Shown: in pieces, positions 22,700 to 43,978 of the stretch
How the letters are laid out: each line of letters opens with the position of its first letter
Position numbering within the stretch: the stretch's first letter is position 1
Origin: a virus
Lineage: Duplodnaviria > Caudoviricetes
DNA length: 64,000 nucleotides
Strand: one strand, 5' to 3'
IMG/VR virus record: IMGVR_UViG_3300022719_000071
Coordinates: 1-64,000 of that record
Position numbers and translations under genes: made by a program
The notes under the pieces: generated by a model
The model's input: the letters and a program-made list of their open reading frames with translations, nothing else
Told to the model about the DNA's origin: nothing
Database searches by the model: none

Positions 22700-22777
22700 T
22701 GGTGCCCCTGGAGGGATTCGAACCCCCGACGCAGGAATTTAGAGTTCCCCGCTCTGACCAGACTGAGCTACAGGAGC
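22700..22777 (-). tRNA. Amber suppressor tRNA (anticodon CTA)
   Basis: GCTCCTG/CAGGGGC-ACCA, GCTC/GAGC D stem, GGGAA-CTCTAAA-TTCCT anticodon arm, GGGGG-TTCGAAT-CCCTC. Confidence 0.9.
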
Positions 22778-25401: not shown

Positions 25402-26163
25402 TTAACTCGTGTATTCATCAATGTTGAACTGCTTTGCCCGTTCCGGCAAAATCGGCAGCATGTCACGCTTGTACCATTTAACCAGTTCAGGCATATTGGG
25501 TATCAACTTGCGTTTCTGATGTTCCGTTCTTGGCTTTTTGAGTCTCGGCAACTGAGTATCATCCGTACCCCTACTTAGTCCCGTGGCTTGCATAATTTCA
25601 CCACGAGTCTTTAATTTGGACAAATCTTCATAGTAGAGAACCTTTCGAATGGCTCGCACTGGACCTCGGTCTACGAATTCATAATAGATGCGGTATGATT
25701 CCCGCATGTAATTACCCATAGCAATAGTGAAAGGAATAGCTTTGTCAACAGGCTCAATGTTATCTTCTTGACGAACAGTCCATACTTCAGTTTCATATGC
25801 AATCACCGCCGAAATCACTGCATCGATTGGCCGTTTTCTTTCCACTGCGATGAATTCATAACCCTCTCTCATCAACCATTCGAAAATAGGACGATGAGCA
25901 ACGTCATGAGGGAAAACCTTAGTGAAATAATCGTGATGCTGATATTTCATCATCAGCAATAGACGCTCATCACGGCTTTGCTCTAGGCTTTTAAGAGCTT
26001 TGTCACTGGTATAATGATTGACTAACTGACCACCCTCCTCAACCAAAATGTTTTCAGACTTCGGTGGGAAGGGCTCGTTGATAGAGTATCGAAAGTGGGG
26101 TCGAATGGTAGTATACAGAAGTGATGTTCCGTTTCTTGGTACACCGAAGATCGCTAGTCTCAT
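25402..26163 (-). CDS. Sulfotransferase-like protein
   Basis: IFGVPRNGTSLL PAPS-binding loop, NEPF, ERKRPIDAVIS, LYYEDL. Confidence 0.7.
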   Translation of the reverse strand: MRLAIFGVPRNGTSLLYTTIRPHFRYSINEPFPPKSENILVEEGGQLVNHYTSDKALKSLEQSRDERLLLMMKYQHHDYFTKVFPHDVAHRPIFEWLMREGYEFIAVERKRPIDAVISAVIAYETEVWTVRQEDNIEPVDKAIPFTIAMGNYMRESYRIYYEFVDRGPVRAIRKVLYYEDLSKLKTRGEIMQATGLSRGTDDTQLPRLKKPRTEHQKRKLIPNMPELVKWYKRDMLPILPERAKQFNIDEYTS

Positions 26164-34397: not shown

Positions 34398-34762
34398 CTT
34401 TACGATATCTATAGCCGGGATTCTGTCAAGAGCTATCATTCATCTTGGGGTATGCTTTTCAGCACCCCTCTTCGCCCCCTACCCGCCCCTCGTCGTGCCG
34501 AGTCATCAGAGCTGTCTGGAGTTGCACCGACCAGAGTTTGCTTCCGCAACATGTCGCCATGCTACGTGTGGTCTCTTACACCACCGTTCCACCTATTGCC
34601 TGTGCTCAACCTACCCGAAGGGTGAGCCATCGGCTGTCTGTCTCTATGGCACTTGTCCTCAGCATTACGCCGGGTGGGATTTCCCCACTGGTCTGCACTA
34701 TGGTGTCCCGAACTTCCTCTCTCCCAATAAAATGGGCCGAGCGATAGCTTGAATACCTGCAC
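34398..34762 (-). ncRNA. rnpB: Bacterial type-A RNase P RNA
   Basis: CR-I GAGGAAGTTCGGG (34707-34719), AGTGCCATAGAGA, GGAACGGTGGTGTAAGAG, GCAAACTC...GTGCAA, CR-V GACAGAATCCCGGCTATA (34410-34427); P2 GCTATC/GATAGC; upstream TTGCCT-17-TATATT promoter. Confidence 0.92.
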
Positions 34763-42170: not shown

Positions 42171-43382
42171 TCAGTTGAATTCCGTGGCATTGCCCTTCCG
42201 CAGCAGGTAGTCCGGGCTGATCATCTTGAGAGTCACCCGACCCAGCACGAAATCGTTTCGTTCTTTAACCGGAGTAATCACGATACCCTCCCGAATGTTG
42301 GCTCCGGTGATGGTATCCTTTCCGTCACGAAAGCTCTTGGCAGTATCCATGCTGAACGGACCATGGTACAGGACCGGTACCGTGGAAACCTCTAGCCAGG
42401 AGCACGTCTGCTTGAACTCCACGTGATCGAGGTATTGACCCTGACCCGGCTTGCCGACGTAGATGCCGAACACCAGAAAACTCTTCTCCTTCAGACCGTA
42501 GTGCAGATCTTGTACACCAGGACCGAAGGTCTCACCCAGGATGAACACGGGCTCGCCACGACGAACGGCCATGTCCATCACCTTGTTCCATCTACCAGTA
42601 TCCAGCATGTACTGCTTGAACATCCGAACGTACAGGTTCTTGTCATTGGCGTCGTTCCACTTGAATGCCAAACCCTGCTCGCTCAGACCCTTAGAGTTGA
42701 TGATGGTGCCACCGTGAAGAAGTTCCTCGTGATCCAGGTCCGGATCGAAGCCAAAGCACGTCCAGGTGCCGTGAAGCTTCTCGGTGATCACGACCTCCTC
42801 GCCCGAAACCAGAACCTCGTTGTGCTTCTGGATGTTCTCGATGTCGAACTTCAGAGTGTGGCCGAAGATGTTGCAGACCTCACCAGCCATGTGCGTCGGA
42901 ATGGGAGGCTCCCACTTGGTGATGCCAAGCACGTCTCCCACGTCCACGTCGATGCAACGAGACTTGATGGTCTCGATGTCCACGTCGTTCCAGTCATACA
43001 GCAGGTAGCTTTCGCCGTCGCTCAGATCGACACGAGGCAGACCGACAGTCTCTCCCTGAGACAGATCTGGGTCATCCCAAGACACCGGGTACAACAGACC
43101 CTGACTCACGACGCCACGCAGCTTGACAGCCTTGACACGATTGCCTTCTTTGCCTGCCAGCTTGCCTTTGCCTTTCTCCTCATCCCACAGACCCATGCGC
43201 TTCAGCAGCCACTCGGGCATGACCGCAGCCTCGGGGATGTACACGGCGATATCACCAGCCTTGTACTCACCGATGCGGGTGATGCAATCGAAGTCACGCA
43301 CCTTGGCGATCTCCAAGGCGTCGGCATTGGGATGGTCCTCGATGGCGTCGATACGGACGACTGGAACTGAAAATGTGGCCAT
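42171..43382 (-). CDS. RNA ligase, DRB0094/Rnl2-like
   Basis: N-terminal OB-like IEDHPNADALE, motif I EKLHGT, GETFG, motif IV REGIV, motif V LKMISPDYL. Confidence 0.93.
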   Translation of the reverse strand: MATFSVPVVRIDAIEDHPNADALEIAKVRDFDCITRIGEYKAGDIAVYIPEAAVMPEWLLKRMGLWDEEKGKGKLAGKEGNRVKAVKLRGVVSQGLLYPVSWDDPDLSQGETVGLPRVDLSDGESYLLYDWNDVDIETIKSRCIDVDVGDVLGITKWEPPIPTHMAGEVCNIFGHTLKFDIENIQKHNEVLVSGEEVVITEKLHGTWTCFGFDPDLDHEELLHGGTIINSKGLSEQGLAFKWNDANDKNLYVRMFKQYMLDTGRWNKVMDMAVRRGEPVFILGETFGPGVQDLHYGLKEKSFLVFGIYVGKPGQGQYLDHVEFKQTCSWLEVSTVPVLYHGPFSMDTAKSFRDGKDTITGANIREGIVITPVKERNDFVLGRVTLKMISPDYLLRKGNATEFN

Positions 43383-43489: not shown

Positions 43490-43569
43490 TGGAGCCCCAG
43501 ACAGGATTCGAACCCGCATGTGTCCAATTACCCTTTCATCGGGGTAGAAACCCGAGGGGATACAGGGGC
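43490..43569 (-). tRNA. Non-canonical tRNA-like RNA, Arg(TCT) loop, rearranged cloverleaf
   Basis: GCCCCTG/CTGGGGC-TCCA, T arm GCGGG-TTCGAAT-CCTGT, hairpin TCGGG-TTTCTAC-CCCGA enclosed by TATCC/GGGTA. Confidence 0.75.
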
Positions 43570-43577
43570 AGAGAATT

Positions 43578-43654
43578 TGGTACACCGTGCCGGATTCGAA
43601 CCGGCGTCTTCCTGCTTGAAAGGCAGGCATCCTAGGCCACTAGACGAACGGTGC
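43578..43654 (-). tRNA. tRNA-Glu(TTC)
   Basis: CCTGC-CTTTCAA-GCAGG; ends ACCA. Confidence 0.95.
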
Positions 43655-43656
43655 AT

Positions 43657-43735
43657 TGGCACTCCGTGTGGGATTCGAACCCACGACCTTCACCTTGAGA
43701 GGGTGACGACCTAAACCAGACTAGTCCAACGGAGC
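43657..43735 (-). tRNA. tRNA-Glu(CTC)
   Basis: TCACC-CTCTCAA-GGTGA; ends GCCA. Confidence 0.95.
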
Positions 43736-43779
43736 GTTGCGTACAGTATATTTATATCGACTCGACTCGAAAGTCAAGA

Positions 43780-43978
43780 GAAACCGGTTGGTCAACACTC
43801 GATGCGACGGTCAGCCACAACCCGGTGGAGCCTACCCATGACTGGTGAGGTTAATACCCACCAGATCCCGGTCTTCACATCCAATTAAGGATGAGCGTGC
43901 TATTAGTTCCAGGCGAAAGGAACAGGCTTCTACCAACCTTCGGTGTGGGCATCCGCAAGGGAGTCGCCTCCCACAACA
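43780..43978 (-). ncRNA. Candidate structured ncRNA (~200 nt)
   Basis: Own promoter TTGACA-17-TAAGAT (44012-43984), no convincing ORF, multiple hairpins. Confidence 0.55.

What the first reader, a model, noticed from the sequence alone, without database searches (positions are those of the whole stretch)
43490..43569. Arg(TCT) tRNA-like gene with the same rewired topology
Seen: GCCCCTG-TATCCC-C-[TCGGG-TTTCTAC-CCCGA]-TGAAA-GGGTA-ATTGG-ACACAT-GCGGG-TTCGAAT-CCTGT-CTGGGGC-TCCA. TATCC pairs with GGGTA downstream of the anticodon hairpin and the GG follows it, as in the Tyr-like gene, although the sequences are unrelated. Two independent instances argue for a real structural class, not decay.
Basis: partly seen in the sequence, partly recalled or inferred. 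Interest (0 to 1): 0.65.

Follow-up and report, generated by a model that had tools for sequence, protein, structure and literature searches.

The report
Rewired phage arginine tRNA (UCU)
This 80-base gene in a 360-kb phage is very probably a working arginine tRNA that is not a cloverleaf: half of its D-arm lies behind the anticodon arm and pairs back around it. Hundreds of phages, including Felix O1, share this layout; gene finders miss it and I found no paper on it.

Summary
ARAGORN misses it, and Rfam's tRNA model scores it 28.2 bits, just under its 29-bit cut-off.

In 99 distinct relatives a 3-bp helix (C11-C13 with G37-G39 here) encloses the anticodon arm. It is paired in 98% of cells, and all four Watson-Crick pair types occur at each position.

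After the helix come a conserved U, a D-loop-like AAU(U)GGA and an invariant A-U-G before a canonical T arm.

Evidence that it is a working Arg tRNA:
- 96 of 99 anticodons are Arg.
- The three exceptions are the only members that have lost the A at the position-20 analogue, the main ArgRS determinant.
- Rewired and ordinary Arg genes in one cluster almost never share an anticodon (2 observed, 13.9 expected).
- Here it supplies the phage's only UCU isoacceptor.

The family is phage-enriched and unannotated in Felix O1. This scan has already reported the same family on other DNA, and my tests agree. It is a new structural variant of tRNA. Expression and charging are untested.

The parts
43490..43569 (-). 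Whole gene, 80 nt including the encoded CCA: rewired tRNA-Arg(UCU)
   Evidence: Sequence. Rfam tRNA 28.2 bits. Family model R1 95.8 bits. Not called by ARAGORN.
43563..43569 (-). Acceptor stem 5' strand GCCCCUG (nt 1-7)
   Evidence: Pairs with 43494-43500. The family helix is 98.8% paired, with all 7 pairs covarying. This copy has one U6-U71 mismatch.
43561..43562 (-). U8 A9
   Evidence: Invariant in 99 of 99 distinct relatives.
43557..43560 (-). U10 plus C11-C13: 5' strand of the D-type helix. I map it to canonical positions 22-25.
   Evidence: 11-13 pair with 37-39 and covary at all three pairs. The mapping to canonical numbering is inference.
43556..43556 (-). Single spacer C14 between the D-type helix and the anticodon stem (analogue of position 26)
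   Evidence: Exactly one nucleotide in all 99 relatives (alignment A5).
43539..43555 (-). Anticodon arm UCGGG-UUUCUAC-CCCGA; anticodon UCU at 43546-43548, with U33 and A37
   Evidence: Sequence. The family helix has all 5 pairs covarying. 96 of 99 family anticodons are Arg.
43534..43538 (-). Linker UGAAA from the anticodon stem back to the D-type helix
   Evidence: Length is 3-10 nt in the family, and one member carries a 16-nt linker with a small hairpin.
43530..43533 (-). G37-G39 plus U40: 3' strand of the D-type helix. I map it to canonical positions 10-13.
   Evidence: Covariation with 11-13. U40 is present in 98 of 99.
43523..43529 (-). D-loop-like AAUUGGA (analogues of A14, A15, G18, G19, A20)
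   Evidence: GG occurs in all relatives. The A after GG is in 97 of 100 rows, and the three exceptions are the three non-Arg anticodons.
43518..43522 (-). CACAU, a variable-loop-like connector ending in the invariant A-U before G of the T stem
   Evidence: A-U-G is invariant in 38 of 38 on alignment A1, where the search pattern did not fix it.
43501..43517 (-). T arm GCGGG-UUCGAAU-CCUGU
   Evidence: Canonical T loop. The family helix is 99% paired.
43490..43500 (-). Acceptor 3' strand CUGGGGC, discriminator U, encoded CCA
   Evidence: Sequence. 52 of 100 family rows encode CCA. The neighbouring tRNA-Glu also encodes CCA.
43578..43735 (-). Two canonical tRNA-Glu genes (CUC, then UUC) directly upstream on the same strand. 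The second ends 8 nt before the rewired gene.
   Evidence: ARAGORN and Rfam, 62 bits each.
42171..43382 (-). Next gene downstream: RNA ligase with an N-terminal OB fold (context only)
   Evidence: Pfam PF09414 at 5.9e-21 and PF21189 at 3.4e-16.

Best explanation
It is a functional arginine tRNA that reads AGA (and probably AGG), transcribed with the two tRNA-Glu genes upstream. Its acceptor, anticodon and T arms are standard. The D domain has the usual parts in a different order along the chain.

After U8-A9 comes the strand that normally forms the 3' half of the D stem. One nucleotide and the anticodon arm follow it, as in any tRNA. A short linker then leads to the strand that normally forms the 5' half of the D stem, followed directly by a D-loop (A14, A15, G18, G19, A20 analogues). 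Four to six nucleotides ending in A-U lead into the T arm.

The two half-strands pair around the anticodon arm: 3 Watson-Crick pairs plus a U-U or U-C apposition. The secondary structure is therefore a three-way junction, not a cloverleaf.

The D-stem/anticodon-stem stack and the D-loop-next-to-D-stem link are both kept. Because of this, the usual tertiary contacts (U8-A14, A15-U48, G18/G19 with the T loop) could still form and give an L shape.

The host ArgRS would charge it through the A20 analogue and C35-U36.

Shown: the secondary structure, the family, the Arg specificity and the non-redundant use. Inferred: the L shape, charging and decoding.
For: Structure:
- The 3-bp helix covaries at all three pairs. 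On the MAFFT alignment of 38 sequences it is 93.9% paired. RNAalifold predicts it independently. On 99 distinct sequences it is 98.3% paired, with CG, GC, AU and UA at each position and no G-U.
- The three pairs rank among the 12 highest mutual-information pairs of the molecule.
- U8 and A9 are 100% conserved. Exactly 1 nt lies between this helix and the anticodon stem, and GG is present in all members.
- A-U-G before the T stem is invariant where the search did not force it.

Arg identity:
- Anticodons are UCU 57, ACG 18, UCG 12, CCU 7, GCG 1 and CCG 1, which is 96 of 99 Arg.
- Bacterial ArgRS determinants are A20, C35 and U/G36 (PMC9976931).
- The only three members with U instead of A at the position-20 analogue are exactly the three with non-Arg anticodons, UAU twice and UAC once.

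Use as an isoacceptor:
- Among 38 loci with ordinary Arg tRNAs, a rewired gene shares its anticodon with an ordinary neighbour twice, against 13.9 +/- 2.6 expected (0 of 20000 permutations).
- This phage has ordinary Arg ACG, UCG and CCU genes but no ordinary UCU. AGA is 17.5% of its Arg codons.
- Felix O1 likewise has an ordinary ACG gene plus a rewired UCU gene.

Context: it lies 8 nt after tRNA-Glu, with an encoded CCA.

Against: - There are no expression, processing, charging or decoding data for any member.
- A single-sequence fold shows no thermodynamic signal (z = -0.21), and its minimum-energy structure breaks the T arm.
- This copy has a U6-U71 mismatch in the acceptor stem.
- The D-type helix has only 3 pairs, and in one subfamily the pair next to the anticodon stem is a C-A mismatch.
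- No covariation supports the proposed tertiary contacts, because they involve invariant bases. The L shape therefore rests on analogy.
- The sequences came from pattern searches that fixed parts of the D-loop and T loop, so conservation there is partly by ascertainment. The helices were left free.
- Loci related by descent are not independent, so the permutation P value is optimistic.
Confidence: 0.78

Rival explanations
1. It is a D-armless tRNA of the mitochondrial type. The 3-bp helix merely lengthens the anticodon stem, and the following stretch is a floppy connector. There is no D-loop/T-loop elbow, so the molecule works as a flexible 'boomerang' rather than a true L.
For: The secondary structure is formally the same: acceptor, extended anticodon hairpin with an internal loop, connector, T arm. 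No covariation shows the elbow contacts. Bacterial translation can use a D-arm-less tRNA (PMC11551756).
Against: The connector is not free to vary. U-AAU(U)GGA and the final A-U are conserved across hosts from Streptomyces to Escherichia, and the T loop is fully canonical, unlike in mitochondrial D-armless tRNAs. The A after GG tracks the Arg anticodon as the position-20 determinant would. Spacing to the anticodon stem is exactly one nucleotide, as for position 26.
Confidence: 0.1
2. It is a tRNA mimic that is not used in translation. For example, it could be a decoy or sponge for a host tRNA-Arg-directed nuclease or modification enzyme, or a processing or regulatory element of the tRNA operon.
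For: The non-cloverleaf core could exclude it from some tRNA-handling enzymes. It sits beside an RNA ligase gene. Phage tRNA clusters hold other tRNA-like RNAs (earlier notes, untested here).
Against: A decoy would not need to avoid the anticodons of neighbouring ordinary Arg tRNAs. It would not need to switch the position-20 analogue when the anticodon leaves Arg. It would also not need to keep a 7-bp acceptor stem with discriminator and CCA across 99 variants.
Confidence: 0.07
3. This particular copy is a decaying pseudogene of the family.
For: There is a U6-U71 mismatch in the acceptor stem. The anticodon loop UUUCUAC differs from the family majority CUUCUAA. No close relative was found; the nearest is 81% identical.
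Against: It has the fourth-highest score to the family model (95.8 bits), and every other helix is intact. The same U-U and the same loop sequence occur in other members. It is the only UCU isoacceptor in a phage that carries about 43 tRNAs and uses AGA often.
Confidence: 0.05

Closest known systems
Canonical class I tRNA-Arg(UCU) of bacteria and phages (cloverleaf, Rfam RF00005; for example E. coli argU and phage T4 tRNA-Arg, named from my own knowledge)
   Same: It shares the 7-bp acceptor stem, U8-A9, the 5-bp/7-nt anticodon arm with U33 and A37, and the canonical T arm. It also has G18-G19 and A20 analogues, C35-U36, a discriminator and CCA. It has the same presumed job of reading AGA.
   Different: There is no D hairpin at positions 10-25. 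The two D-stem strands lie on either side of the anticodon arm, and the D-loop follows the anticodon arm. There are therefore three helices at the junction, not four. It is not found by ARAGORN and scores 28-40 bits with RF00005, against 40-73 for ordinary tRNAs.
Metazoan mitochondrial D-armless tRNAs, e.g. mt-tRNA-Ser(AGY/UCU) (review PMC7609411)
   Same: There is no D hairpin, and the anticodon stem is in effect lengthened by extra pairs. The molecule is used (or presumed to be used) in translation.
   Different: The mitochondrial forms have degenerate T loops and have lost the D-loop/T-loop contact. The phage family keeps a canonical T loop and a conserved GG-containing D-loop placed 3' of the anticodon arm. 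It is also of normal length (73-82 nt) and works with bacterial machinery.
Circularly permuted and split tRNA genes of red algae and archaea (PMC3978253, PMC3218864)
   Same: The order of tRNA parts along the gene departs from the textbook.
   Different: In those cases processing restores a normal cloverleaf in the mature RNA. Here no simple cut-and-join would restore it, and the covarying helix indicates that the mature RNA itself has the new order.
tRNA-like domain of tmRNA (my own knowledge)
   Same: It is also a three-way junction: an acceptor stem, a T arm, a long helix in place of the anticodon arm, and a stemless D-loop analogue that contacts the T loop.
   Different: In tmRNA the D-loop analogue is 5' of the long helix, there is no anticodon, and it is charged with Ala. 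There is no sequence relation.
The rewired Tyr(GUA) gene of the same phage
   Same: The parts come in the same order: a C-run before the anticodon arm, and a matching G-run followed by a GG-containing loop after it.
   Different: The sequence is unrelated, with a longer spacer and a shorter D-loop-like stretch. The Arg family model does not match it. I did not test it by covariation here.

Membership tests
tRNA (Rfam RF00005, cloverleaf) | 7-bp acceptor stem with discriminator (and CCA) | tested here: met
   GCCCCUG/CUGGGGC with one U-U, discriminator U, encoded CCA. The family helix is 98.8% paired.
tRNA (Rfam RF00005, cloverleaf) | Anticodon arm with a 5-bp stem and a 7-nt loop carrying U33 and purine 37 | tested here: met
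   UCGGG-UUUCUAC-CCCGA.
tRNA (Rfam RF00005, cloverleaf) | T arm with a 5-bp stem and a UUCRANY loop | tested here: met
   GCGGG-UUCGAAU-CCUGU.
tRNA (Rfam RF00005, cloverleaf) | D hairpin between positions 10 and 25, before the anticodon arm | tested here: not met
   Rfam aligns 15 model positions to 4 nt and inserts 18 nt after the anticodon arm. ARAGORN makes no call here or on any of the 100 relatives.
tRNA (Rfam RF00005, cloverleaf) | Score at or above the curated gathering threshold (29 bits) | tested here: not met
   It scores 28.2 bits. Some relatives reach 32-40 bits.
Rewired phage tRNA-Arg family (defined by model R1 here and by earlier notes of this scan) | 3-bp Watson-Crick helix enclosing the anticodon arm, one nucleotide from the anticodon stem | tested here: met
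   C11-C13 with G37-G39, spacer C14. Family covariation.
Rewired phage tRNA-Arg family (defined by model R1 here and by earlier notes of this scan) | U, then a D-loop-like AAU(U)GGA after the helix, and A-U-G entering the T stem | tested here: met
   U40, A41-A47 = AAUUGGA, then CAC-A-U-G.
Rewired phage tRNA-Arg family (defined by model R1 here and by earlier notes of this scan) | Arg anticodon together with A at the position-20 analogue | tested here: met
   UCU and GGA.
Rewired phage tRNA-Arg family (defined by model R1 here and by earlier notes of this scan) | Family model score well above that of ordinary tRNAs | tested here: met
   It scores 95.8 bits. Family members score 44-100 bits and ordinary tRNAs 34 or less.
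Functional aminoacylated tRNA-Arg | Transcribed, end-processed, charged with Arg and used on the ribosome | not testable with these tools
   Only indirect evidence is available: non-redundant anticodons, and the identity element tracks the anticodon.
Mitochondrial-type D-armless tRNA | Loss of the D-loop/T-loop elbow elements (no conserved G18-G19, degenerate T loop) | tested here: not met
   GG is present in all relatives and the T loop is canonical. The comparison follows the description in PMC7609411.

The most novel reading that the evidence does not exclude
Phages maintain a second, non-cloverleaf tRNA chassis, seen here for Arg and with a sibling design for Tyr. It keeps the L shape needed by the synthetase, EF-Tu and the ribosome but changes the core wiring. 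As a result it escapes host enzymes that recognise or unfold the ordinary D-arm core: tRNA-directed defence nucleases, decay by PNPase-type surveillance, or the phage's own depletion of host tRNAs. On this reading the rewiring is an immune-evasion or insulation device, not a neutral oddity.
Probability: 0.2. Interest if true: 0.92.

Novelty: new variant of a known kind. Interest (0 to 1): 0.78.

Why it matters

If these genes work, a natural tRNA with permuted core strands operates with ordinary bacterial synthetases and ribosomes in hundreds of phages. These include laboratory phages such as Felix O1, phi92, 121Q-type jumbo phages, T5-like Klebsiella phages and Streptomyces phages.

Consequences if the genes work:
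- Phage tRNA counts and codon-supply analyses are systematically short of an Arg isoacceptor, because finders skip these genes. In Felix O1 a protein gene start is annotated on top of one.
- It would offer a natural test of which tRNA core connections the translation machinery really needs.
- It would be a ready-made scaffold for orthogonal tRNA engineering.
- The question of why phages rewire tRNAs could be tested directly in cultured phage-host pairs.

Tried and rejected
Rejected by pair counts: 66% paired, and 11:43 forms in 3 of 38.
- **Single-sequence folding.** No signal (z = -0.21), and the minimum-energy fold destroys the T arm. It was not used.
- **MAFFT alignments A1 and A2.** These misplace the last base of the anticodon stem when linkers differ in length. 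I therefore built the model from the eight UGAAA-linker sequences (A3, R1) and realigned. The D-type helix result is the same on both kinds of alignment.
- **Pseudoknot or further tertiary covariation.** Mutual information with APC correction on 99 sequences gives only the model helices at the top.
- **Second copy or other rewired identities in this genome.** R1 finds only this gene.
- **Generic script for 'anticodon hairpin right after the acceptor stem'.** Outside Arg it returned only ordinary tRNAs whose D arm was mis-parsed, so it was uninformative.
- **Cellular origin.** The specific pattern occurs 13 times in 596 Gb of bacterial and archaeal genomes, all metagenome-assembled and several inside large tRNA arrays, against 115 stretches in viral contigs.
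- **Literature.** Seven full-text searches, including sequence strings, and four papers read found no description. Subscription-only papers are not covered.
- **Intron or processing back to a cloverleaf.** No single excision or circular permutation restores the normal order. I rejected this by inspection only.

Full report
**Where it is**

The window is the first 64 kb of a 360,469-bp IMG/VR virus record, estimated 91% complete. The record has 46.7% G+C, 42 tRNA genes found by ARAGORN, a tmRNA and an RNase P RNA. ARAGORN finds no Arg(UCU), Tyr, Asn or Lys(UUU) gene.

The gene lies 8 nt after tRNA-Glu(UUC), which itself follows tRNA-Glu(CUC) by 2 nt, all on the minus strand. The next gene downstream is an RNA ligase (PF09414).

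Rfam's general tRNA model matches the stretch end to end at 28.2 bits, just under its 29-bit threshold. It does so by deleting the D arm and inserting 18 nt after the anticodon arm. Folding the single sequence gives nothing useful (z = -0.21).

**Relatives**

- blastn against 50,697 phage records found full-length relatives in Streptomyces phages. Mildred21 carries one with anticodon UCG that is annotated as tRNA-Phe, and Francob carries one with UCU.
- The enterobacterial version occurs in 269 records, mostly unannotated or labelled 'tRNA-OTHER'. Carriers include Felix O1, phi92, 121Q-type jumbo phages, Vequintavirinae, T5-like Klebsiella phages, and records deposited as Campylobacter phages.
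- In the Felix O1 RefSeq record the gene sits at 25951-26032 inside the tRNA cluster. It has no annotation, and an HNH endonuclease CDS start is drawn over its 3' end.
- A pattern specific to the layout hits 115 stretches in 2.9 million viral contigs. It hits only 13 in 596 Gb of bacterial and archaeal genomes, all metagenome-assembled and several inside arrays of 15-24 tRNA genes.

**Structure**

On a MAFFT alignment of 38 distinct relatives, the helix between positions 11-13 and the three bases before the conserved U-AAU(U)GGA is paired in 93.9% of cells. All three pairs show changes on both sides. RNAalifold predicts the 3-bp helix on that alignment without being told.

I built a covariance model from the eight sequences with a UGAAA linker. 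It separates the family (44-100 bits) from ordinary tRNAs (34 bits or less) and gave 99 distinct sequences. On these:

- The helix is 98.3% paired.
- Pair 11:39 is CG 71, AU 11, GC 8, UA 7.
- Pair 12:38 is GC 48, CG 27, AU 13, UA 11.
- Pair 13:37 is CG 42, GC 35, AU 5, UA 3.
- There are no G-U pairs.

That alignment is fitted to the model, but the MAFFT result agrees with it. Mutual information ranks the three pairs among the top twelve of the molecule. It shows no further covarying pair, so I see no support for a pseudoknot in this family.

Other constant features are:

- U8 and A9 in 99 of 99 sequences.
- Exactly one nucleotide between the helix and the anticodon stem.
- U after the helix in 98 of 99.
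- GG in all.
- A-U-G before the T stem in 38 of 38 where the search did not fix it.

Small hairpins can be inserted in the linker or after the D-loop-like stretch. These are the places that would lie at the surface of a tRNA-like core.

**How I read the wiring (inference)**

- The 5' strand (U10, C11-C13), the single spacer and the anticodon stem reproduce the canonical run 22-25, 26, 27-31.
- The 3' strand (G37-G39, U40) followed at once by A-A-U-U-G-G-A reproduces 10-13 followed by A14, R15, Y16, Y17, G18, G19, A20.
- The final A-U before G49 would serve as A21 and U48.

The two blocks '10-21' and '22-43' are thus swapped along the chain, while each keeps its internal continuity. In a normal tRNA the strand 39-43 is coaxial with 10-13, so a short linker can close that gap. 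Positions 9 and 21 lie close to 22-23 and 48, so the new joins there are short as well. An L shape with U8-A14, A15-U48 and the G18/G19-T-loop contacts therefore looks attainable. Nothing here tests it.

**Evidence that it is a working Arg tRNA**

- Anticodons among the 99 are UCU 57, ACG 18, UCG 12, CCU 7, GCG 1 and CCG 1. Only UAU (twice) and UAC (once) fall outside Arg.
- Bacterial ArgRS relies on A20, C35 and U/G36 (PMC9976931).
- The A after GG is present in 97 of 100 rows. The three rows with U there are exactly the three non-Arg anticodons, and all three have discriminator A. That is what an identity switch would look like. It also argues that the relocated loop really acts as the D-loop.
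- ARAGORN calls none of the 100 genes.
- In the 38 loci that also hold ordinary Arg tRNAs, the rewired gene repeats a neighbour's anticodon only twice, against 13.9 +/- 2.6 under permutation (0 of 20000). Related loci are not independent, so the P value is optimistic.
- This phage has ordinary Arg(ACG), Arg(UCG) and Arg(CCU) genes, and the rewired gene is its only UCU. AGA makes up 17.5% of its Arg codons in a rough ORF set.
- The copy here scores 95.8 bits, fourth best in the family. Its only blemish is a U6-U71 mismatch that five other members share.

**What is known**

Seven full-text searches, including sequence strings, found no description. The 2020 review of non-canonical tRNAs does not mention phages or such a layout. 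A 2024 paper states that all known bacterial tRNAs are cloverleaves. It also shows that E. coli HisRS, EF-Tu and the ribosome accept a D-arm-less tRNA, while PNPase limits it (PMC11551756). Subscription journals are not covered by these searches.

Within this scan the same family has already been reported on other DNA several times, starting with Felix O1. The Tyr sibling in this window has been followed up separately. I reached the same reading from my own alignments.

**Verdict**

The finding is real. It is a new member of a phage-specific family of non-cloverleaf arginine tRNAs, a new structural variant of tRNA. Its secondary structure is well supported. Its function as a charged, decoding tRNA is strongly suggested but untested. 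Why phages use this wiring is unknown. Escape from host enzymes that act on the ordinary tRNA core is the most interesting possibility, and I give it about one chance in five.

Noticed in passing
window 34400-34757 (-): Full-length bacterial class A RNase P RNA (168 bits, model positions 1-367) encoded by the phage itself, among its tRNA genes.
   Followed up: no
window 22700-22777 (-): tRNA with anticodon CUA, an amber suppressor that ARAGORN labels 'Pyl' (Rfam tRNA 62.7 bits). The phage may read some UAG codons.
   Followed up: no
L206 3952-4033 (Felix O1 NC_005282.1 25951-26032): The rewired Arg(UCU) gene is unannotated in the RefSeq record. The start of HNH endonuclease CDS Felix01p088 (26003) is drawn over its last 30 nt, so that start codon is probably wrong.
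   Followed up: partly
L145 9034-9110, L015 5506-5582, L173 10637-10713: Three members of the rewired scaffold carry the non-Arg anticodons UAU, UAU and UAC. All three have U in place of the A20 analogue and have discriminator A. They look like identity switches to Ile/Val on the rewired chassis.
   Followed up: partly
L130 4767-4854, L133 2951-3039, L158 5137-5229: Family members of 88-93 nt carry small extra hairpins, either in the linker after the anticodon arm or between the D-loop-like stretch and the T arm.
   Followed up: partly
L021 9402-9478 and 9491-9566, with L087 2227-2305 (same contig, IMGVR_UViG_3300038393_000245); L117 1178-1539: Some phages carry two or three rewired Arg genes with different anticodons, sometimes in tandem. 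One 2.9-kb locus holds ACG, CCU and UCU.
   Followed up: partly
L127, L129, L134 (Bryobacterales MAG contigs of 46-437 kb): Rewired Arg genes sit inside arrays of 15-24 tRNA genes within 8 kb on contigs binned as bacterial. These may be chromosomal tRNA arrays or integrated elements.
   Followed up: no
L079 1744-1827; L115 2049-2452: One viral contig has a tRNA-Sec match (50.2 bits, threshold 47) among 33 tRNAs. Another has a tmRNA (72 bits) next to its rewired Arg gene.
   Followed up: no
window 43736-43790 (-): TTGACT, 17 nt, TAAATA lies just upstream of the first tRNA-Glu and is a possible promoter for the Glu-Glu-Arg transcript. No intrinsic terminator follows the Arg gene on the minus strand. 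A promoter-like TGGACA-16-GATACT (43444-43417) precedes the RNA ligase gene.
   Followed up: partly
G000:C1:277752-277865 (+), outside the window: A 114-nt match to the tRNA model (45.5 bits) that ARAGORN does not call.
   Followed up: no
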